DNA of 64,000 nucleotides from Torpedo marmorata (lineage: Eukaryota), in NCBI GenBank assembly GCA_977017645.1, contig OZ360249.1, positions 10,540,001-10,604,000 on the forward strand, read 5' to 3'. The notes below the pieces were generated by a model. It ran no database searches, was not told the DNA's origin, and worked only from the letters and a program-made list of their open reading frames with translations. Position numbers and translations under genes: made by a program. Shown here piece after piece: positions 33 through 64,000 of the stretch. Every line of letters begins with the position of its first letter. Positions within the stretch are counted from its first letter, which is position 1.

Positions 33-1148
33 AAATTTAGACATACAGCACGGTAACAGGCCATTTTGGCCAACGAGTCTATGCCGCCCAATTTGCACCA
101 AATTAACCTACACCCCCGGTACGTTTCGAACAGTGGGAGGAAACCGGAGCCCCTGGTAAAATCCACGCAGACACAAGGAGAACATACTGTTATGGACCAT
201 GACTGACCATTTAGACTGCGGACGGTCAGCAGGAAGGATGAAGTCTTTTGGAGAACACACTGGGGCCAGGTACTGAAAGAGTTAACTTGCCCAGGACCTG
301 GTGTACCCAGAGAGAGAGAGACCAGAGAGACAGGCTGTGGAAAAGATACTTTGTTGCACTTTTGAAAAAGCAGGTGCAAACCTCTGCAAAAAGCATTCAG
401 ATTCAGTTGTTTGGAATTGCAAAGGCTGGAGAACACAGCAAAATCCAGGCTCGTGCATCCCAGGGGAAAAGGCTGGGAGAATAGCACATGGCCTCCTGTA
501 TCAGCAAAATCCTGAGTTAAAACAACTTTTGTGAAGAACAGGCGTGTGATCAGCGAGACCAGCTGTGAGATCACGCCTCAATCGGTGGTATACTGATTTG
601 GAGTCGCAATCCTCGTGTATCTACCAAAAGGGAAAGTCATCAGAGAAGAAAAGCAGGCCAAGCATTCGTAAGCTTAAACAGTCATTATTTCTCTCTCCAA
701 CGGTCATTAAGAAGTCCTTCGTGCCAGCACACAGAGCTGAATTTGGACCCTGAACATAGAGAGTTGATTTTTGTGGACTGTATCTTTGGGACTGACTTAT
801 TTTATGACTAACCTGGGGGTTTTGGGGAAGGTTTTTCCATTGTTACATGAGGGTTGGGCACAGACTGTAATGGTCTGGACTTTACACACACACACACACA
901 AACATTTTAGATAAGAATAGTGTTTATAGACGTTTATAGTGGGGTTAATTGTTGTGAAATTATATGTTTAATTGTCTTTAATAAATATAAATTTCAATTT
1001 TACCCCTTTTGCATTGCGTCTTCTGTTGTTGCTGGTTTGAATTTGTAACAATACAAACTCCTTACAGACAGTGCGGGATTCGAACCCCGGTCCTGATCTC
1101 TGGCGCTCTAAAGGCGTTGCGCTAACCGCTCCGCCAACCGTGCCACCC
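33..1148 (-). mobile_element. HE1/V-SINE-like tRNA SINE split by a solo LTR (33-187 and 1055-1148)
   Basis: tRNA-like head (GGTTGGCGGAGCGG...GGTTCGAATCC on - strand), central domain and CR1-like tail; the halves join across the LTR. Confidence 0.85.
188..1050 (+). mobile_element. solo LTR, family 1 (Gypsy/ERV-like)
   Basis: TGTTA...TAACA termini, 4-bp TSD ATAC, AATAAA near the 3' end, second copy at 9343-10206. Confidence 0.85.
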
Positions 1149-6400: not shown

Positions 6401-7171
6401 AATGGCGGCGCTGCCGGAGCCGCAGTAGCGGACCCGCGGGGAGCGGAGATGTAGCGCTCCCGCGGGGTCCAGCCGCCCAGTCGAATGCCTTCGGCTCCGC
6501 ACGGGCTTTGAACAGCACGTTGAGGGAGCCGACGGTGTTTTTGTTTGAGATCCCGTGACCACGGGGTCTGCGCCCAAGATGGCAGCGCCTATTAATCGGC
6601 AGCAGCCACGAGGGGCTGCAGACTCCGGGGAAGCGGAGGACTGGAGCAGGGCACCAGAGGACGGGAAGATCACCCCCCGACTGAGAAGGAGAAGCGGAGG
6701 AGACGACCCACGGAACGGTGACCACGGAGGCTGACCAGTGAGGGGCTCTGAAGCTGAAGGACCAGTGCATGCGGAGGCTGTGGGCTGCTGGAGACTGCTG
6801 TCGGGAGACTTGCGCCGGGCTGCGGACTGCTGGAGACTGGCTGGAGTACCAGGTATCGGAACTGGGATGCGAGTGGGTGCCGAGGGCGCCGAAGGGTTCC
6901 TGATCGTGTCGGAGGTTCGGATCTAGAGCTCGGGTTGCCGATAGTTTGGACTGGACTCTGTGTGGCTGCGGAGGCGCTGGAGGTGAATCTACGGACACTC
7001 GGTGACTCTGGGGGGACTCTCTTTTGCTTCTCTTTCTCTAACTGTAAGGAGTGTTAGAGGCGCTTAGGCAGTTTCTGCCGGTGGCGAATCTGTCTGCCTT
7101 GCAGCAGGCAAAAAGAAATTTCATAGTAATAAAACAGTGTCATATTACTATGAAAATAAATTGAATCTTGA
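6401..7171 (+). mobile_element. GC-rich ~800-bp non-autonomous retroelement, copy 1
   Basis: highly similar to 14583-15393, 38218-39001 and 63883-64000; ends aataaa ttgaatcttga. Confidence 0.8.
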
Positions 7172-7533: not shown

Positions 7534-7744
7534 TGGCTCAAAATGGAAAGAATTGATTTTCAAACCTTTTTTTTTTTTTAAATTGACCCAGCAGAAAATA
7601 GTATTAATAAAAATCCTTCATTTGTGATCCTCACCAGGTATTGAACAGAGAGCTTGGTTGAATAGGTAGGTAGTCAGGTTTTGAGAGGTAGAGAAACAGT
7701 GTGGCAAATTCAGAGTTTACCCAGCGACAGCACAGTTGACGATG

Positions 7745-8226
7745 TTAGACCAAAAGGTAATGGACACAGCCCAGGACATCACAGGCAAAACCCTCCCCAC
7801 TATCGAGAACATCTACAGGGAACGCTGTCATCGGAGAGCAGCAGCAATCATCAAGGATCCACACCACCCAGGACACGCGCTGTTCTCACTGCTGCCATCA
7901 GGAAAGAGGTATAGGTGCCACAAGACTTGCACCACCAGGTTCGGGAACAGCTGCTACCCCTCCACCACAAGACTCAACAAATTCAATCAGGGACTCATTT
8001 AAGGACTCTTACTTGGGCACTTTATTGATTTTTTATTCTCCCTGGATTGCAGTTTGTTTACATTCCTTATCTGTTTACAGTTCTTTATTTGTTTACATGT
8101 ATACGCTGTGTACAGTTTTATTTGTGCTGTCAACAAGTGGTAATTCTGCCTCGCCCTCAGAAAAAAAGAATCTCAGGGTTGTATGTGATGCCATGTATGT
8201 ACTTTGACAATAAATCTGAAATCTGA
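7745..8226 (+). mobile_element. Rex1/Babar LINE 3' fragment (second subfamily)
   Basis: IIKDPHHPGHALFSLLPSGKRYR; gacaataaa + (atctgaa)n tail. Confidence 0.85.
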
Positions 8227-9342: not shown

Positions 9343-10206
9343 TGTTATGGACCATGACTGACCATTTGGACTGCGGACGGTCAGCAGGAAGGATGAAGTC
9401 TTTTGGAGTACACACTGGGACCAGGTACTGAAAGAGTTAACTTGCCCAGGACTTGGTGTACCCAGAGAGAGAGAGAGAGAGAGAGAGCAGAGAGAGAGAC
9501 AGGCTGTGGAAAAGATACTTTGTTGCACTTTTTGCAAAAGCAGGTGCAGACCTCTGCAAAAAGCAGACAGTTGGGAGTTGCAAAGGCTAGAGAACACAGC
9601 CAAATCCAGGCTTGTGCATCCCAGAGAAAAGGCTGGAAGAATAGCACATGGCCTCCTGTCTCAGAGAAATCCTGAGTTAAAAGCAACTTCTGTGGAGAAC
9701 AGGCGTGAGATCAGCGAGACCAGCTGTGAGATCCAAGCACACACCTAAATCAGTGGTATACTGATCTGAATTCGCAATCCTTATGAAAACACAAGAAGGG
9801 AACGTCATCAGAGAAGAAAAACAAGTATTTGTAAGCATAAACAGTCATTGTCTCTCTCCAATGTTCATTCAGAAGTACTTCTACCAGCACACAGAGCTGA
9901 ATTTGAAACCTGAACTTAGAGAGTGAATTTTGTGGACTGTATTATTCTTTTTTTGACTGACTTGTTTTTATGACTGACCTGGGGTTTTTGGGGAAAGTTT
10001 TTCCATTTTTACTTAAGGGTTGGGCACAGACTGTAATGGTCTGGGCTTTACACACACACCTTTTAGATAAGAATAGAGTTTATAGACGTTTATAGTGGGG
10101 TTAATTGTTGTGAAATTATATGTTTAATTGTCTTTAATAAATATAAATTTCAATTTTACCCCTTTTGCATTGCGTCTTCTGTCGTTGCTGGTTTGATTTT
10201 GTAACA
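9343..10206 (+). mobile_element. solo LTR, family 1, second copy
   Basis: TGTTA...TAACA, 4-bp TSD AAAT, inserted in a Rex/Babar 3' tail. Confidence 0.85.
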
Positions 10207-10709
10207 AAATAAATTCTAATTCTGATCTGCCAAGTCCTTTGAGGCAAGGCATGAATGAGGCTTTCCTCAAAAATATTTTTGTTTTAATTACTGGATGTTG
10301 AAATGAATATGCAAAACTCTTAAATACAATGACATATTTATGGTCACTTATGCAAATTACTCTCAAATTGCTCACCTATTTTGTTGCAGCTCCACTTCAT
10401 TTAATGGATTCACCTGACCTGTGGCAAGTGCAACCAGACCTGCAGTATAGAAGTGGAAAACTCCAGGATGCTGTCACTCTGCTACTTATTTCTGCCTGTC
10501 ACCCAACGCCAGGGAGAAGTTAGACAACAGCAGCAATTGGCTGTCTGGAAGTTGCAGACTTCTGTGTTCACATCTGAAACCTGCAGGCAGTTGGGGCAGG
10601 AATTTTCAGCCAATGCTTCTAACTCTACAGGTGTGAGCAACTAAGATATTGCAACCAGTTGGTGAATTTGTGAATATTGCAGAACAGCTTAACCATTGGA
10701 AATTTAAAC

Positions 10710-14037: not shown

Positions 14038-14582
14038 CTGGAAAACAAAAACTCCAAGTATTGTACATGGAAGAGAGGTTATTTTTCTTTGACTGACCCA
14101 GCACAACTAGCCAGTGAGCACAAATGAAGTTCCTTTCTGTTGGACAATATGCAAATTTGATCATTTTCACAGATAAATTCCAATCCTCTTGTTAGGCAAT
14201 TTAGAAATCAGCATAATTCAGCAACGTGGCTGGTTCCATTTTTTTGTGCATTCAAACATCTTATCAATTAAAGGAAAATTTTACCTTTAACAATTATGGA
14301 AATTCATGGTAAATCTACCAGCAACTTTCAACATGCAAGCAGTCTTTACACCTTGTGCTCCTCTCAAATGTCATGATGGAAACAGCTTCCTTTAGTGCAT
14401 TTTTCACAAGGAAAATGGCATGGTGTAAAGGTGATTGAAAATTATTCGACTTACCACATATTGAGGAATGAATAGCCTTCACATTAAGTATTCTACAGAC
14501 AGTGAAAGTGGGTTGGTTATGAGGACTTTTTAGATTTTAGACAGACAGCACAGACGGTAAACGTCCCTTTCAGCCCACGAGC

Positions 14583-15393
14583 AATGGCGGCGCTGCCGGA
14601 GTCGCTGTAGCGGCAGCGCTGCCACTGGTGCGGACCCGCAGGGAGCGGCGATACAGCGCTCCCGCGGGGTCCAGCCGCCCAGTCGACTGCCGTCGGTTCT
14701 ACACGGGTGTTAAAGGAGCCAACGGTGGTTTTATTTGAGATCCCGCAACCACGGGGTCTGCGCCCAAGATGCAGCGCCTTTTAACCGGCAGCAGCCACGA
14801 GGGGCTGCAGATTCCAGGGAAGCGGAGGACTAGAGCAGGGCACCAGAGGATGGGAAGATCACCCCCCCGTCTGAGAAGGAGAAGCGGAGGAGACGACCCA
14901 CGGGACGGTGAACACGGCAGCTGACCGGTGAAGGGGCTCTGAGGCTGAAGTACCAGTGCATGCGGCGGGCTGCTGGCGACTCGAGGCGAGGAACCCGCGG
15001 AGGCTGTGGGCTGCTGGAGACTGCTGTCGGGGGATTCACGCCGGGATGCGGACTGCTGGAGGATGGCTCGAACTGGCTGGAGGAGTACCAGGTATCAGAA
15101 CCGGGATGCGAGGGCGACCTGACCGTGTCGGAGGTTCGGATCTGGAGCTCGGGTCGCCGATGGTTTGTTTGGACTGGACTCTGTGTGGCTGCGGAAGCGC
15201 TGGAGGCAAATCTATGGACACTCGGTGACTCTGGGGGGACTCTCTTTTGCTTCTCTTTCTCTGACTATAAGGAATGTTAGAGGCGCTTAGGCAATTTCTG
15301 CCGGTGGCGAATCTGTCTGCCTTGCAGCAGGCAAAAGGAAATTTCATGGAATATGACACTGTTTTATTACTATGACAATAAATTGAATCTTGA
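14583..15393 (+). mobile_element. GC-rich ~800-bp non-autonomous retroelement, copy 2 (inserted in a SINE)
   Basis: splits a minus-strand SINE (14531-14582 / 15394-15575). Confidence 0.8.
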
Positions 15394-17868
15394 GCCCGTG
15401 CCGCCCAATTACACCCAATTGACCTACAACTCCTGGTATGTTTTTGAGGGTGGGAAGAAACCGGAGCCCCCGGGGAAAATCCACGCAGACACGGGGAGAA
15501 CATACAAACTCCTTAGACACCACGAGATTCGAACCCTGGTCCCGATCTGTAACAGCATTGTGCTAACCGTGCCGCGGTTAGCATAGCAGATATTCTGAAT
15601 AATAATGATACCCTGAACAATGACTCTTTGCAACAAGTCACCTGTCCTAATTAGACTAAAGATAGTGAAACACAACTTTCTTTAACCCAAAGCAGCAGCA
15701 GGCAGCAAACATTTTAAGGTGATGTAATGATGACACCAGAACCCAAGGTAAGTAGGGTAATTTTATTTATACTTTTTTTAAAACAAGCATCATCTCAACG
15801 AATGATCATGATTGCACCTGTTTGGAGTGGTGGAACACAGGAAACGTGACTATTGGTGGTGGTCAGTTTTGGAATACCAGCAATTTTGCCCAATCGGAAT
15901 GAATAGATGCTCCCATTCCAAACACAAGTCCACCATGGACAATGATCTTCCCTTCTCTGAGGTGGAAGTGGCACAACTGAAAGGAACCAGCGTTTTCTCG
16001 CAGTTGATCATACATTTCAAATATACCCTGACGAAAACCTTGGAGAACGCAATCATCCAGATGGATGGATGGCCTTTTTCACGCAAATGACACACAAATT
16101 TCAATATTGCTGGTAGTTTGTTTTAAATAGATCATGTCAACTCAAAGGTTTTTCTTTCCATCCAAAAAGCTGACCCTACCAACTCAGAAGCAGAGATGAC
16201 AAAGATGGTTCAATGTTTCAAGTCAGTGGACATCCATAAATCCACAAATGGAATTACATTAAACCCCGTGTCAATTGGGGAGTGAGGGGCAATTCTGTAA
16301 AGTTACGATGAGGACCTTGTCAGTGTGCTGAGTAGGTCCAGAGTGAAAGCTGTCCTACTGGAGGTCCAAAGGGCAAGCTTCACATGGCAGCAATGCAAAA
16401 TTAAACCTCAGGCAAGCACCCAAGGGAATCCACCAAAAGTTACACTCAAAAATTTCCATGGTGGACATGCCTCACTAAAATAAACACGTATTCATATTTA
16501 AATGAAAAACACAAAGTTCAGGTTATTATACATTTCTTAATGTAAATTACTAAACAGTTGTCCAAGTCTACCCTTTTGTAAATTATCTGCAATCTCAATT
16601 AATATGCCTTGAATGGTATATGTGGATGACAGGTGGGAAAATCTTCAATGATTCCATTAAAAACAGTAAATAATAAATGTTGATTTCAAACATCATTTAA
16701 AGCATGTTTAAATTTAAAATATCACATCAAAACTCAATGCAATTCAAATATTGTTAATTTATAGCTATGGTAACTGCCAGATAATTAATTTTATTTTAAA
16801 GATACAAATTTACAGCAAATATTCTGTATCCAGGTTACCATCTTTCCTATTAAAAGTACCACCTGTAGCCAGGTGTCTGGTAGGCAACAATATTCATGGA
16901 CCTGTTAAAAGTTCAACAATTAATGAAAGTTTCAGGATCTTTCAAAGCAAAGCTTCAATTTCTTTGAGAAATCTTTATTTTTGCAGTATAAGTGCATCTT
17001 CTACCCACTGTCTTGAAAGAAAACATATACCTATACATAAAGGACGGTGGGTGTCAAATGTTGCAAAGTAATTAAAATAATTATAAAACTAAGTTTTTAA
17101 AGGCATATTTAAGACAGTAAAATCTTTTCCATAAAGACAAAAGCATTTTAGTGGTACAGAACATGGATGTATAGTAGAAGGAGCCCAAGCATATTGAATG
17201 TACCTTATTATTTCAATACAGGAGATAGAGATACGAGCATGGTAAACTTTTCACCAAATTGTGATAAAAATTTACAAAATACCCCAAGTCATAAAGTGAA
17301 ATGGTGTGGTGGGGGTGAAAATATAGACCAAGCAGCAACTTTCCAACAGGCACTTCTTAATTTATCTATAAATATGAATTTTTTTTCATTCATGCAACTT
17401 TTTGTAGTATATTATTTACTACAATTTACTTCTATGGGTTTACTATGGACACCAAATCCTCAAATTCTCCAACCCGTCTGCATTGTCAGTAAAATGGTGC
17501 ATTGCAGTAACAGCAACCACAAGGTCATCTTACAGCAACATTAACGGAAAGAATATATTCTTTGTATTAATATAAAATAAACGATAAAGAAGGATCGACG
17601 GCCTTGCAATGTATTTCCATTGCTTAATATAGGCCCAAATGGCATATCATAAGTTGGGGAAACTGCGATCAAAAAAACAGGGTGGGGCTTTTAGGAATCT
17701 CAAGGTCATCGATTAAACATTTGGTCGAAAAGGGAAAAATTTGCTTGGTATATCGAGGGGGACAAGCATCGATTGCAAGGTAAACAATGTAGAAACCCCC
17801 AAAATAACAGGACACAGAAAGCTCGAGAGAGAGAGAGAGAGAGGGGGAGGCATACACTGAGCTCGTAC

Positions 17869-18137
17869 CTGGAAGCATTGCTGTGATCTGAGCCGTCGTC
17901 TTCTGGGTTCTTGCCCTGGCTGGACATGGTGGTGGGGCAAGGCAAGTTTGGGGGCTCGGTTTTGTTCTGGGCTACACGTGGATGGGGATTGAGGGAACGC
18001 AGCTCCGCACTGTCAAACTCGCAGCGAGCGAGCAAGTCCACCGGAATCAGCAGCTGCCCGCTGGTCGACTTGCAAAGCCCTGACGCAGCAGCGACATTGT
18101 TTAAGCACTCAACACCATTGTCGCACTCCGACAATCT
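17869..18137 (-). CDS. coding exon of unidentified gene (RLSECDNGVECLNN...TTMSSQGKNPEDDGSDHSNAS)
   Basis: ctgtttttgtgtag acceptor, CCAG|gtacga donor, 269 nt open frame (ORF 17706-18134), GC/CpG-rich, phase 0 to 2; internal Kozak-like ACCACCATG. Confidence 0.65.
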
Positions 18138-18363
18138 CTACACAAAAACAGCCCGGTCAAAAATAAAGAAAAACAACACACGAACAGGTACATTTCTTTC
18201 AAAGCAATGCTATGAAACTGACATGCCCGAAACTTAACGCGTGAAATACAAAGTCTCCCAAAATCTAGACAGTGAATTTTAACTACGCAATCACAGCTCA
18301 ACCAAATTTACATTACATATTTTTTAAAATTAATATATTTTTTATTAATTACTGTAAACATAC

Positions 18364-38200: not shown

Positions 38201-41200
38201 TTTCGTGATTAAAGAAACGGCAGCGCTGCCGCTGATGCGGACCCGCGGGGAGCGGAGATACAGCGCTCCCGCGGGGTCCAGCCGCCCAGTCGACTGCCGT
38301 CGGTTCTGCACGGGCTTTGAACGGCTCATTAAAGGAGCCGACGGTGGTTTTATTTGCGATCCCGCGACCGCGGGGTCTGCGCCCAAGATGGCAGCGCCTT
38401 TAACAGCCACGAGGGGCTGCAGATTCCGGGGAAGCAGAGGACTGGAGCAGGGCACCAGAGGGCGGGAAGATCACCCCCCATCTGAGAAGGAGAAGCGGAG
38501 GAGACGACCCACAGGACGGTGACCATGGCGGCGGACCAGTGAGGGGCTCTGAGGCTGAAGGATCAGTGCTTGCGGCGGGCTGCTGGCGACTCGAGGCGAG
38601 GAACCCGCGGAGGCTGTGGGCTGCTGGAAACTGCTGTCGGGGGATTCACGCAGGGCTGCGGACTGCTGGAGGCTGGCTCGAACTGGCTGGAGGAGTACCA
38701 GGTATCGGAACCGGGATGCGAGGGGGTGCTGAGGGCGCCCTGACCGTGTTAGAGGTTCGGATCTGGAGCTTGGGTTGCCGATGGTTTGGACTGGACTCTG
38801 TGTGGCTGCGGAGGCGCTGGAGGCGAATCTATGGACACTCGGTGACTTTGGGGGGACTCTCTTTTGCTTCTCTTTCTCTGACTGTAAGAGGCGCTTAGGC
38901 AATTTCTGCCGGTGGCGAATCTGTCTGCCTTGTAGCAGGCAAAAAGAAATTTCATGGAATAGGACACTGTCTTATTACTATGACAATAAATTGAATCTTG
39001 AAATGCCTGGGGAAAAGGCACCTAATATCAACAAACACAGGGCTGACTAGCTGTTCCGTGTTTAGCAAGGTCAAAGGACGAGGAAATGGATACAAAGGAA
39101 GAATTAAATTTAATGTATGCTGTGATAGCAGTAGGGGGCAAATTAGAATTCTGGGTCAGAACTTCAGCAAAAATAAATGCAAGGAAAACTACCCATAAAA
39201 AGTAACACCAATTCCAGTGGACCTTTTCAAGTTTCCCAAACGGTTATTTTCACCAACCTGCACTAGGGGATGGGTTATGCACGTTGGCCCAATCAGCAAT
39301 AGCCATAACCCATAAAAGAAAATCCACATTCGAGAAGACTGCTTGTAATCAAAGCCAACTTTGTGTTGCAAAATAAATATTTTCTACAAGTGTTGCCAGT
39401 AAATGCAGAACACCATGAAGGACTGCTGAGGGAGTGTAAATTAAATAGTAACTGCTCTGAAGTATTACCATACATTTTCCATTTCAACATCTTGATTGTC
39501 AATAGCCTCTCACAGATACAAATTTATTCATACACTTTAAAGGCAATTGGTGCAAACACTTCTGCAAATCCACTTTTTTGTTCTTAATTTGGCCACATCT
39601 ACTAAGTAAACACAGCAAGTGGCTTGTTGTTATAAACTGCATCCCAAATCAAATAGAGACGAGACCAAGAGTTTTTCAAATTTTTATTAAGAAATGCAAA
39701 TTGATGAGAATGGCACCAGTTTGAAGAGGGGAAAGGAAAATCAGAGTAAATCAAAAAGCAATGATTCGCAGTTGTTAAACACTGGTATTACAACCCAAAA
39801 ACCGCCTTGTTAGTCTTCAAAAATCTGAAAGTCAATGATCCAGAAGTTCAAAGGTGTTCTAATGAAGAGGGGTAGTGCCTCAATTTCAATGAATGAGACA
39901 AGAAAGCAGTTTGCGGGATTAAGAATTTGCAACTGGAAAATATCAGAAAACCAAATTTAGTCAGAATGCAAAAATTATGCATTTGGGAAATAAAATCTGA
40001 AAATTGATGGGGGAGGAAAGCCATTCTCTATGATAGACAAACTACGAAAGAGGGTCAAAAGGAGCCAGGTGGGAGTAAGAGGTAGGAAAAGAAAGCAATT
40101 GATATTGAAAAGAAATCCAAATCCAAGCCTATGGTTTATACTGTGAAGCACAATTTTTATACCCAAACCAAGATGCGACAGTGGAAGGAACTCTGAACAT
40201 TTTTGTGACGTGTCAGTCCCACGTTCCACCCATTCTAAATTTTATTTGGGTGCTGAGATATTCAATGCTGTTTGGGGGAAAAAAAACAAACACACTGTAT
40301 CAATATTCTGGGTTTGGTTACTTTACAATCAGTTGAAAAGTTTTGTGTGCGTACAAACTGCAGTAATCTGAAACAGAAAACTGTGCCCACGAAGGTGAAC
40401 TTCAGATTTTGAAAGATATTGCTAGTCTTCTGTGATCCGCACAACACATTGGGGACTGAACAGCCACGAATCAAAGAATAAACTTGCAGTGGTCATTTTA
40501 AAATCAGTTACCAAATGCTTGACGCTTACTTCGATTTTGCATGAAATACACAATCTGCAGACAGGCAGGGTCCAGAGCTTCTTGTACACCTTCCCTAAAT
40601 AAAATCAAATGAAATGTGCTATCATTAAAATATCAAATAAATTCCCCAAGTGTAAATTTCGCTTTGAATTTTAATTACTCAATCTTTTATTTTTAACAAT
40701 TCTGTATCCTTTGTTATTGAAGTAGTCGGATTGAAATGTTTCCAAGTTGTTGGAAATGTGTGTTTAACATTCCTTTTCCTTCCACATTCACCTGCACAGG
40801 ATTATACAGTAAAAACCCTGGTATCCAGAATTCAAGCAACCGGCAAAAAAAGAGGAAAATAAATTTCAAAAATTAATAAAAGATAAAAAAATTTCGCAAG
40901 TTTAAAATTGTAAAAGTAAATGTTCTCTGAAGTAACATAAACCTTTGGTGAAGATGGGAACAAATATTCAGCCAGCGGAGTGCCTTGGTCATGCTTTGCT
41001 CGGAGCAGCTGTTTGAATAAAGTTGCGTGAAACAGCAACGGCGTCGCCCAGGATGAAGAGCTAGTTGATGTCGCTCGCCGTTAGGGTGACTCTCTTAAAG
41101 TGTCTCCTTATCCCTGCTTAGTGAGAATCGCCCTGGTCAGAGGCTTTATTTCTAAACTTGGGGGAGGGGAGGTTAATTATCTATGTTATTGTTCGTCTTT

Positions 41201-53200: not shown

Positions 53201-56200
53201 GACTCAAATCAGAAGCTTCAGTTTTATAACAACTTTGTAAAGAAAAGTTGAAAATTTCACCATCAAGGAGGGAAAAATGTACTTTCACCATTCGAAAACC
53301 CAACTAGAGGTTATGCAGAATAGTTAAGCTGACTGATGAAAAACACCACTTCAACCCACCAAAACGTCAAGATGGAAGCCAAATGCAAAATTGTAAAAAA
53401 ACATGAAAAGGATTGATTAAATCATGTGTCACCCCCAGCACAAAGAGTTAACAAAGCCAACACCCAAACAAAGACATCTTTTGATAACTCGTGGATCACC
53501 TTAGATTTGCTTGTATTGAGGAAACAACTTAATCGATCACAACCTAGGCAATACTTGTTCACAACCATAACCTTGTAAACTAACACACAAAAGGTCACCA
53601 GTAACAAGAATTCCTCTATTAACCTTGTGCTACATATTTGTCGTTTGATTAAGACTATTAACATTTGGAGGCTTGACCTCTGTGCAGTTGTGCAAAGCCA
53701 AAAAAAAAAATCGAGTTTTATTAGAGGAAAAGTATCTCAAGGGTTAATATTGTCGTTTATTTTTAATTTAGATTTATCCAAATATGGACTGCAAATGTAC
53801 CATCAGAAGTTTGTGTTAAATTCACTTACAATTCAGAGATCAGAACACAGTGCAGTACCAGCCATGGCTGCTATAATTAGGCAGTTTTAATTGTGCTGCA
53901 TCACAGCAGCAGTTCTCAAGGACAAAGTTCAATTAAAACAGTACTTACTTGTGTACGGGTGTCGTATTCGGAACAAAGAGTGGGGTCTGCCTCCAATTCT
54001 GGCAATCCCTCGATGCTTCCCTCGTCGTTCCACTGTCTGGGGCTTCCTAGACTGAAGGCAGAAGCGTGGAAAGCCAGTCCCAGCCCTGCCTTGGTCCTCT
54101 TGCCGAGAGCCTCGCCAGGGCCATTAGTATGCTCAGAGGCTTCGTTTCTGCCATATTGACAGTTCCTGAGCATCAAGGCATCTTTGTGAGTTACTACTAA
54201 CAAGAGGGTGACGCAGCCCAGGCCGCAGTTCCCGGCTTTCCTCTTGCCTCTGCCCGCCGCCCGCGGCCCGGCGCCGGTACCTGCTCCTCGCTGCCGCCCC
54301 TTCGCGCTCGGGGAGCCTGCAGCTTTCCTGCAACTCCATGATGGGTGTGAACAGACAGCTCCACTTTCACCAACATGGCCTTCTTGCAGCACAACTTCCT
54401 CCAGCAGAGGCATTTTGGGAAGAGAAGGGCCGCCCCGCCGCTGATTGGCTGCGGCGCTGGTGACCTCATCGCTTCTGCACGGCCGCCTGCAGCTGCTGGT
54501 CCGGCCGCTTGCACCAGCGGCTGTTGGCGGCGCCGGGCTGGGTCCTGCTGGGCTCGGAACTGCTGAGCTCGCCCCCTTCCTCAGCACTTGCACATCATCA
54601 CCCGCACAAAACTGAACGTAGACCCTGTTAGAAAACAGCATTTAAAAAAAAAACAAACGTAAAATCATCAGCCAGGTGCAAAGAGATGGTCCTGATATAT
54701 TGTGCATGCTTTATTTTTTTTTTTGCTTTGCAGAGGATTTGCATTGCAACCGGTTGGTAAATGGAACAGCAACAAAAGCCGAGCTCTTGCGGCTGAAACC
54801 GAAGTGCGCTCAGCAACCACAAGAACATCTGCTGCAGTGAGCCACCCCTCCCTCCACGCTTCCTGCCCCAGCCAATCCCCTGCCCCAGCAAATTCCCCCA
54901 GGCTTCGCAAATGACGTACTTTGCAGATAATAGCCACTAAATATGCCCTCCTTTCCGAAGCAAGCATGGCGAGCAAGGACTTTTGTCCGCGCTGCAGCTT
55001 CTAGGCTGCGCAGACGTTCATATTGGTATTTTTTTTAAATTTTGCAAATGATGCTGCTTTTAATTGCAAAAAAATCCCTCTCCTTGTTCGAGTCTCACTG
55101 CATTCATTTTCAACCCTGCAGCTGCCGAATGCCTTTCTAAATCCTTTCCCGTCATTCCTCCTAAAGGCAACAAAAGCCCTGCCACGTCGACAACCTAATG
55201 GAAAAATACTGCAGAGCTTTTCCCAGAGAAACAAAATCACCCTGCCGTCTCCGCCTTGTTTGTCTTGGGTTAGGGAAGGGGAAATGGTTTTACTTCAACT
55301 ACAATGCTTATTCTGACGAGGATCCCCTGTTGATTTAATTTTGCATTTAAACAAAAACTGACGTAAACGTGGTTACAATTATTTTTGACCACTTTTCGAT
55401 TTGTGTGGACTGACTCTGTATATGAACAAATCAACAAATACCTTAATGAAAGGCTCAAGCCCGAAACGTTGGTCATGTATCTTTATCTTTGCTATATAAT
55501 GTACACTGTTTGACCTGCTGAGTTTCTCCAGCATTGTGTTTTTACTTTAACAAATACCTGCTTTGATTATACAATTAAACTTGTATTTAATTTGTTGATT
55601 TATAATGTCATATATCAACACTTTGAATTGTATATGATATAGGTAGCATAATTAGTAAATTTGCAGATGACAAAATTAGTGTATAGTGAAGAAGATTATC
55701 TGATTTACGACAAGATCTATATTATCTGGGGAAAGGCAGGTGGAATTTCAGTGCAGCGATGCATTTTGGTAGTTCAATCACAACCGGACTTGCACAGTAA
55801 ATGACAATGTCCCGAGAAATATTCTAGAACACGAGGGGTACAAGTATATTAGTTCCCTGAAAGTCGTGATACAGGTAGACAAGGTAGTGAATAAGGCATA
55901 TGGCATGCTTATCTTCATTCGATGGGGCATTGAGTACAAGACTTAGGATGTCATGTTGCAGCTGTATGGATCAGCCATTCTCAACCAACAGGCTGCGACT
56001 GTTTTTCCTGCGAAAAAAGCTGGGGGATGACCTTATGGAGGTTTATAAAATTATGAGGCGCATAGATATGGTGAATAGTGGCAATCTTTTTGCCAGGGGG
56101 AATCTTAAACTAGAGGAATTGGGTTTAAGGTGAGAGGGGAAATATTTAACCTGAACAGCAAGATTTTCCACTCAGAGAATTGTGAGAACGAGCAACAATC

Positions 56201-63882: not shown

Positions 63883-64000
63883 ACGGCAGCTGGTGCGGAC
63901 CCGCGGGGAGCGGAGATACAGCTCTCCCAAGGGGTCCAACCGCCCAGTCAACTGCCGTCAGCTCCGCACGGGCTTTGAACGGCCCGTTAAAGGAGCCGAC
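63883..64000 (+). mobile_element. GC-rich retroelement, copy 4 (cut by window end)
   Basis: gcggacccgcggggagcggagatacagc...ggggtcca head. Confidence 0.75.

What the first reader, a model, noticed from the sequence alone, without database searches (positions are those of the whole stretch)
14583..15393. ~800-bp GC-rich non-autonomous retroelement with a multi-hairpin, non-tRNA head and a Rex/Babar-like tail (4 copies)
Seen: near-identical copies at 6401, 14583, 38218 and 63883. The first ~230 nt is a chain of back-to-back stems: TGGCGGCGCTGCCG/CGGCAGCGCTGCCA (14585-14624), GGACCCGCGGGGAGCG/CGCTCCCGCGGGGTCC, CCGTCGGCTCC/GGAGCCGACGG, AGATCCCGC/GCGGGGTCT and GCAGCC/GGCTGC. It starts with a YY1-like AATGGCGGC. 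I see no Pol III A/B boxes and no RT ORF. Its tail (tctgcct.gc.gcagg.aaaa.gaa...tgacaataaa + short repeat) resembles the Rex/Babar tail at 8142-8226. One copy sits inside a SINE, so it was active after that SINE inserted. All copies are antisense to the host genes. Inference: a SINE-like parasite of Rex/Babar LINEs built on a structured RNA of unknown origin, possibly Pol II-driven or carrying a 5' ribozyme.
Basis: partly seen in the sequence, partly recalled or inferred. Interest (0 to 1): 0.7.

Follow-up and report, generated by a model that had tools for sequence, protein, structure and literature searches.

The report
Protein-free retroposon mimicking both LINE ends
An 845-base repeat with no recognisable protein gene, present in an estimated 200,000 copies, begins with the same short start motif as this genome's LINE retrotransposons and ends in a tail like one LINE family's, so it likely borrows that LINE's copying enzyme and is likely read by RNA polymerase II rather than the polymerase III used by ordinary SINEs.

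Summary
Real, but ordinary in mechanism. The four window copies (81-89% identical, not near-identical) belong to an ORF-less ~845-nt family of about 217,000 copies (~2% of a 630-kb sample) in three age classes. It has a fixed 5' end, a folded ~225-nt head, no regular target duplication, and a tail of two hairpins + AATAAA + (ATCTTGA)n. The young class's tail matches LINE family B, the family of window 7742-8226 (0 of 1000 shuffles), and the two are of similar age. Main addition here: full-length copies of four EN-RT LINE groups start at the same A-rich ATGGCG motif, which in the intact ones opens the ORF. The motif is therefore shared with the LINEs, but the head is not a 5' UTR of any LINE found. 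No Rfam family, Pol III boxes, HDV-like or hammerhead ribozyme was found. Stem conservation is modest (two lineage-level compensatory pairs). Best reading: a likely Pol II-transcribed parasite of Rex/Babar-type LINEs, closest to the GC-rich-headed bird SINEs. Head origin is unresolved, and Dfam/Repbase could not be searched. This scan has reported the same family before on other DNA of this genome.

The parts
14583..15393 (+). Full-length copy of the young class (92% to the 845-nt consensus)
14583..14591 (+). 5' start motif AATGGCGGC; same position and core (A-rich + ATGGCG) as the 5' ends of LINE groups A, A-old, B and F; YY1-like (label recalled)
14585..14624 (+). Head hairpin 1 (13-14 bp), nearly invariant across the three classes
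14632..14672 (+). Head hairpin 2 (inner part differs by indels between classes)
14690..14725 (+). Head hairpin 3 (12 nt deleted in this copy); carries both lineage-level two-sided pair changes
14738..14759 (+). Hairpin 4 (weak in the old class)
14765..14778 (+). Second start-like motif (consensus CAAGATGGC, one G lost here); in the old class it extends to about 22 of 25 nt alike with the 5' terminus of LINE F
14791..14808 (+). Hairpin 5
14809..15281 (+). GC-rich body without excess folding, with short internal duplications and a pyrimidine tract near its end
15282..15315 (+). Sub-terminal segment, also present in the tail of a 5S-headed SINE; weak post-hoc likeness to the 5' ends of LINEs A and B
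15316..15334 (+). Tail hairpin SL1
15344..15375 (+). Tail hairpin SL2; pairing kept across classes
15377..15393 (+). AATAAA and terminal (ATCTTGA)n repeat
15394..15575 (-). 5' part of the host SINE; its 3' part lies at about 14545-14582
6401..7171 (+). Copy with internal deletions and an inverted SL2 interior
38218..39002 (+). Copy lacking the first ~28 nt
63883..64000 (+). Copy that runs on past the window into L031
7742..8226 (+). 5'-truncated LINE family B fragment (RT C-terminus + tail), the best candidate partner family

Best explanation
[quoted passage not shown] Shown: fixed 5' end, start motif shared with four LINE groups, folded head, two-hairpin tail similar to family B's, terminal microsatellite, 5'-truncated copies, no regular target duplication, three successive classes. 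Inferred: (1) the ATGGCG motif fixes the transcription start, as a YY1-type site is recalled to do for human L1; (2) the LINE protein binds the tail hairpins and primes reverse transcription at the repeat; (3) the head hairpins act in the RNA, for example by stabilising it or holding ribosomes off the 5' AUG. The origin of the head is not established.
For: Copy number: 22 copies in 63 x 10 kb, about 217,000 genome-wide. Defined ends in 30 of 30 best loci, and 7 of 9 sampled young copies intact at the 5' end. Tail vs family B: z 8.2, 0 of 1000 (young) and 8 of 1000 (old), with the AATAAA anchor excluded; same SL1/A-rich linker/SL2 fold. Pairwise mismatch is 5.5% for the young class and 5.8% for B, against 1.7% for A. 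LINE 5' ends all start A-rich + ATGGCG. No sense A/B boxes in the head and 3-4 T4 runs in each consensus. Class-level changes break fewer pairs than simulated: head 5 vs 10.5, tail 3 vs 12.5. TSD of 6 nt or more in only 4 of 53 copies. Contigs of four coded organisms lie along the element, and 376 in run X6 stop at its 5' end.
Against: No LINE with the element's own (ATCTTGA)n end was found: 0 of 30 exclusion-pattern loci read out of 136, and none seen among 100 such tails in 1.23 Mb. B ends in a different repeat, so the partner is inferred. The mid class shows no significant tail match to B (218 of 1000). Covariation by pair count is not significant (19 vs 15.6, 54 of 500), and the structure was derived from the same consensuses. 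The age sets were best-hit selections. No transcript or start-site data were obtained. The Rex/Babar and YY1 labels are recalled, not tested by tree or binding data.
Confidence: 0.72

Rival explanations
1. Simple internal-deletion (bipartite) derivative of one LINE: head and body are the 5' UTR of an extinct or unsampled Rex/Babar-type family.
For: Starts at the LINE start motif. About 22 of 25 nt match to LINE F's 5' end at consensus nt ~203 (0 of 200 shuffles). Bipartite derivatives are a known class (PMC5786205, section 23 read).
Against: The four LINE groups whose 5' ends were read have essentially no 5' UTR: the frame is open for at least 90 codons from the first ATG in A and F. No credible alignment of the element to their 5' 400-640 nt; the best are gap-ridden. 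That paper lists only RTE, Ingi, Vingi and R2 as sources. Families C, D, E and G were not read at their 5' ends.
Confidence: 0.15
2. Self-cleaving element: the head is a 5' ribozyme that releases the RNA from read-through host transcripts.
For: Strong folding, mostly full-length copies, and ribozymes are reported in six other LINE clades.
Against: No Rfam match. 0 strict HDV-like cores in three consensuses on both strands, and relaxed cores at shuffle level (2 vs 1.3, descriptor without a positive control). No hammerhead core in the head. The fold is serial hairpins, and the start motif is shared with LINEs whose heads lack this fold.
Confidence: 0.05
3. A Pol III SINE with a highly diverged small-RNA head, or one driven by an upstream type-3 promoter at a master locus.
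For: Length and tail are SINE-like. A 5S-headed SINE shares the last ~120 nt.
Against: No A/B boxes in the sense head and T4 runs at about nt 165 in all classes. No Rfam similarity even at E up to 10, apart from chance-level bacterial hits. Several classes expanded in turn, all with the same start.
Confidence: 0.08

Closest known systems
BuceSINE and ManaSINE2 (bird SINEs with GC-rich heads, mobilised by AviRTE; PMC4844689 passages; PMC7245038 passages)
   Same: GC-rich head of unknown origin, no Pol III RNA gene, LINE-derived tail
   Different: The partner here is of the Rex/Babar type, not RTE; a bipartite tail is only weakly indicated; the head starts at the LINEs' own start motif; 845 nt long
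ORF-less bipartite non-autonomous LINEs (RIME, NARTc, Bov-A, Vingi and R2 derivatives; PMC5786205 part 1 and section 23)
   Same: No ORF, LINE-like 5' terminus and 3' tail, probable Pol II transcription
   Different: No parent LINE carrying the head was found; 5' homology is limited to short motifs
SINE/LINE pairs with Rex1 or RSg-1 tails: SINE2-5_NV with Rex1-24_NV; SlmI, HpaI and OS-SINE1 with RSg-1 (table in PMC3747384, passages)
   Same: Non-autonomous passengers sharing a tail with a LINE of this kind
   Different: Those have tRNA or 5S heads with Pol III promoters
HE1 V-SINE of sharks and rays (same table)
   Same: SINE-like element of the presumed host group (host group inferred, not tested)
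   Different: tRNA head and HER1 partner; a different element. The SINE interrupted at 15393 resembles it (recalled)

Membership tests
SINE (SINE1/2/3, SINEU) | Head derived from tRNA, 7SL, 5S or snRNA | tested here: not met
   Rfam: 0 hits at gathering score in the window; only chance-level bacterial families at E up to 10
SINE (SINE1/2/3, SINEU) | Internal Pol III promoter, no internal terminators | tested here: not met
   No sense A/B box in the head; 3-4 T4 runs per consensus
SINE (SINE1/2/3, SINEU) | 3' tail shared with a LINE | tested here: met
   Young class vs family B, 0 of 1000 shuffles; mid class not significant
Non-autonomous non-LTR retroposon | No RT ORF, many dispersed copies, fixed 3' end with simple repeat, 5'-truncated copies | tested here: met
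Bipartite non-autonomous LINE | 5' part homologous to the 5' end of an autonomous LINE | tested here: inconclusive
   Only short motifs shared with A, A-old, B and F; four other tail families not read at their 5' ends
Bipartite non-autonomous LINE | 3' end identical in kind to the parent LINE, including the terminal repeat | tested here: not met
   No RT-linked (ATCTTGA)n tail among the loci read
GC-rich-headed SINEs (BuceSINE/ManaSINE2 type) | GC-rich head of unknown origin | tested here: met
   60-62% GC, 63-72 CpG per consensus
GC-rich-headed SINEs (BuceSINE/ManaSINE2 type) | Bipartite tail from an RTE LINE | tested here: not met
   The tail matches a non-RTE-type LINE of this genome; its bipartite nature is weak
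Ribozyme-headed retroelements (HDV-like, hammerhead) | Ribozyme core at the 5' end | tested here: not met
   the descriptor had no positive control
Rex/Babar clade (partner LINEs) | AP endonuclease upstream of RT; conserved 3' UTR followed by an oligonucleotide repeat (PMC6274825 passages) | tested here: met
   Exo_endo_phos_2 (below its curated cutoff), RVT_1 and PF09004 in family A; tails
Rex/Babar clade (partner LINEs) | Placement in the Rex1 clade of an RT tree | not testable with these tools
   No reference Rex1 RT set held; PDB hits only R2 and L1 at E about 1e-10; clade label recalled
A family already in Dfam or Repbase | Match to a deposited consensus | not testable with these tools
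   Neither library is offered

The most novel reading that the evidence does not exclude
The element is a mosaic of Rex/Babar LINE termini. A ~125-nt mini-LINE module (LINE 5' hairpin joined to LINE 3' tail) acts as an exchangeable landing tail for different heads: 5S rRNA in one SINE, a Pol II head here. The head itself carries the LINE start motif twice, once as a relic family-F 5' end. That would be a bipartite derivative outside the RTE/Ingi/Vingi/R2 clades and a Pol II 'SINE' that succeeded by copying its host LINE's start signal.
Probability: 0.2. Interest if true: 0.65.

Novelty: new variant of a known kind. Interest (0 to 1): 0.42.

Why it matters
If the reading holds, about 2% of a 6.2-Gb vertebrate genome consists of a passenger that needs no Pol III RNA gene. 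It spreads some 200,000 CpG-rich promoter-like cassettes and poly(A) signals, many inside introns. It also offers a direct test of how Rex/Babar-type LINEs, which here have almost no 5' UTR, set their transcription start and recognise their RNA, since the LINEs and the passenger share only a ~10-nt start motif and a two-hairpin tail. The mechanism itself (tail parasitism of a stringent LINE) is well known.

Tried and rejected
Rfam at gathering score and at E up to 10: nothing relevant. HDV-like descriptor, hammerhead core and A/B boxes: negative. ORF or ORF1-like coding: no long frame in the copy or the consensuses. Autonomous LINE sharing the head: none among 30 family-A, 30 FTETWL-pattern, 30 family-B and 30 EN-motif loci. 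Autonomous LINE sharing the exact tail: none in 30 of 136 pattern matches (23 element copies, 7 tail-only truncations; one has an RT hit ~750 nt upstream across unrelated DNA). Whole-element alignments to LINE A's 5' region beat 100 shuffles for the young class but are gap-ridden low-complexity alignments and were rejected. Target-site duplications: 4 of 53 scored copies (of 80 full-length) at 6 nt or more vs 1.9% in controls, partly overlapping the tail repeat; rejected as a regular feature. LTR reading: no TG...CA ends. Internal motif as an alternative start: sampled 5' break points do not cluster at nt 203 (small sample). Expression: no RNA holder listed, and all runs laid were contigs; no evidence either way. 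Host genes: not identified. Literature: nine answered searches plus one search found no description of this family; supplements were not opened and Repbase Reports are not held. The L1-YY1 paper was not held.

Full report
Observation. The four copies exist at the stated places, and the fourth continues beyond the window. They are 80.6-88.8% identical pairwise counting gaps, so 'near-identical' is too strong. The listed stems are a composite of different copies. The first 230 nt of the 14583 copy fold at z -4.2, with 0 of 200 shuffles as stable. The copy splits a minus-strand SINE whose two halves rejoin colinearly. Two minus-strand exon-like stretches with GT donors make three copies plausibly antisense; the genes were not identified.

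Family. A search of the 6.2-Gb own genome gave 10,325 candidates, of which 40 were scored. Thirty loci gave an 845-nt consensus with a fixed start and an AATAAA + (ATCTTGA)n end. In 63 stretches of 10 kb taken at round coordinates on large contigs there were 27 hits. I dropped three that are tails of a different, 5S-headed SINE and merged two pairs that look from their coordinates like interrupted copies. That leaves 22 copies: about 217,000 genome-wide (Poisson 95% 136,000-329,000; my arithmetic) and 2.1% of the sampled bases. Seven of nine young copies reach the 5' end. Searches seeded with diverged copies gave a mid and an old class. Copies lie about 4% (young) and 11% (mid, old) from their group consensus, and all classes keep the same start. 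Contigs from runs of four coded organisms lie along the element; 376 contigs of one run stop at its 5' end with A-rich loose ends. Target duplications are not regular: 4 of 53 copies scored, against 1.9% in controls.

Tail and partner. I collected tails of seven LINE-like families from the loci. With the AATAAA anchor excluded, the young tail matches family B, the family of window 7742-8226, at z 8.2 (0 of 1000). The old tail matches B weakly (8 of 1000) and the mid tail not at all (218 of 1000). B and all three classes fold into the same hairpin, A-rich linker, hairpin layout. Pairwise mismatch is 5.8% for B and 5.5% for the young class, against 1.7% for family A (best-hit sets, so rough). 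One young copy sits directly against a 5'-truncated B copy in opposite orientation. Against this, no LINE with the element's own terminal repeat was found. Of 136 genome-wide matches of the tail hairpin with a non-consensus upstream, the 30 read were 23 element copies and 7 tail-only truncations. Of 100 such tails in 1.23 Mb, 93 had element sequence upstream and the other 7 were short or interrupted on reading. The partner is therefore inferred.

5' ends. Family A is a single EN-RT ORF of about 1,030-1,130 aa in many copies. 21 of 30 loci share a boundary about 560-640 nt upstream of the EN motif, and the six printed begin at ATGGCGCC. Family F (10 of 17 loci) and an older A group begin at AAGATGG. 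Seven family-B heads begin A-rich + ATGGC. In A and F the frame is open for at least 90 codons from that ATG, so these LINEs have almost no 5' UTR. The element starts at the same motif but shows no credible further homology to these regions. Two short likenesses remain. The internal motif at about nt 203 of the old class continues like F's 5' end (0 of 200 shuffles, anchored and whole-element). A 12-nt block just upstream of SL1 resembles A's 5' end (0-21 of 1000 in the mid and old classes within a 60-nt region chosen after seeing it; not significant against the whole element or in the young class). Both are leads only. Families C, D, E and G were not read at their 5' ends.

Structure. Excess folding is confined to the first ~225-300 nt and the tail; the body folds like shuffles. 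On 41 of 80 full-length copies, 86.7% of cells pair under the young-class structure. Pairs with two-sided change number 19 against 15.6 shuffled (54 of 500), not significant; most are CpG double decay. Two pairs in hairpin 3 change on both sides between classes (CG 22 / AU 15 and AU 23 / GC 13). At the level of class consensuses, substitutions broke 5 head pairs against 10.5 simulated (P 0.007) and 3 tail pairs against 12.5 (P 0.0001), with 2 two-sided head changes against 0.15. The structure was derived from the same consensuses, so these values lean favourable. I read this as modest support for selection on the head fold and good support for the tail fold.

Promoter and ribozyme. Rfam has no match. 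There are no sense A/B boxes in the head, and each consensus has three or four T4 runs, the first near nt 165; by established knowledge these would terminate Pol III. My HDV-like descriptor found 0 strict cores and shuffle-level relaxed cores; it had no positive control. No hammerhead core lies in the head. No run on record as RNA was listed, so transcription is untested.

Mechanism. Shown: anatomy, copy number, shared start motif, tail similarity, nesting. Inferred: Pol II initiation set by the start motif (YY1 label and its role in L1 recalled; the paper was not held), recognition of the tail hairpins by a family-B-type EN-RT protein, and target-primed reverse transcription without a duplication. 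The role of the head fold is a guess. Confidence 0.72.

Known relatives. Kojima 2018 (PMC5786205; part 1 of 5, passages and section 23 read) lists ORF-less bipartite LINEs only for RTE, Ingi, Vingi and R2, and calls them very likely Pol II-transcribed. Suh et al. 2016 (PMC4844689, passages) describe BuceSINE and ManaSINE2 with GC-rich heads on RTE tails; PMC7245038 (passages) repeats this. Ohshima 2013 (PMC3747384, passages) tabulates Rex1- and RSg-1-tailed SINEs with tRNA or 5S heads. PMC6274825, PMC3381678 and PMC3472496 were read as passages only, and no supplements were opened. Searches found no description of this family, but Dfam and Repbase could not be searched. The element works like a stringent-tail SINE but fails SINE membership on head and promoter. 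The Rex/Babar label for the LINEs and the cartilaginous-fish host are recalled or inferred, not tested by a tree. Earlier AI notes of this scan describe the same family elsewhere in this genome and similar ones in two other genomes; they are not independent evidence. They led me to check the 5S-headed SINE.

Verdict. A real, very abundant non-autonomous retroposon; a new variant of a known kind; interest 0.42.

Noticed in passing
window 7122-7155; also L167: The interior of tail hairpin SL2 is inverted in place relative to consensus, as expected from template switching within a hairpin.
   Followed up: partly
L286:4696-4934 (-), L274:4326-4443, L305:1259-1384: A 5S rRNA-headed SINE (Rfam 5S, 28.8 bits, below gathering, E 0.0004) whose last ~120 nt resemble the old-class tail; 3 copies in the 630-kb sample.
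   Followed up: partly
L103, L111, L118, L125, L126, L129 (family A); L191-L219 (family F); L364, L368, L371 (family B): Full-length LINEs begin at an A-rich ATGGCG whose ATG opens the ORF in A and F, leaving almost no 5' UTR. Many family-A copies have ORFs over 1,000 aa and up to 99% identity, suggesting recent activity.
   Followed up: partly
window 188-1060 and 9343-10216: Two copies (86% alike) of an ~870-nt repeat with TGT...ACA ends resembling a solo LTR; the second interrupts a family-A tail.
   Followed up: no
L263, L268 (G000 C1083 and C78): A 57-nt unit from the body of the old class is expanded into tandem arrays of 10 to 20 units.
   Followed up: no
old-class copies L245, L247, L266: One old subgroup has a different tail interior and ends in (ACCTTGA)n, suggesting tail exchange.
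   Followed up: partly
G000 C80 (L332) and C664 (L333, L334): Multi-kb segments are repeated at 98% identity, and 12 EN-motif matches cluster on C80 between 13.7 and 16.1 Mb; a tandem or segmental array.
   Followed up: no
window 17870-18140 (-) and 53949-54185 (-): Exon-like stretches with GT donors beside CpG islands; genes not identified.
   Followed up: partly
L046:199-324: Head-to-head arrangement of two family-B tails forming a palindrome.
   Followed up: no
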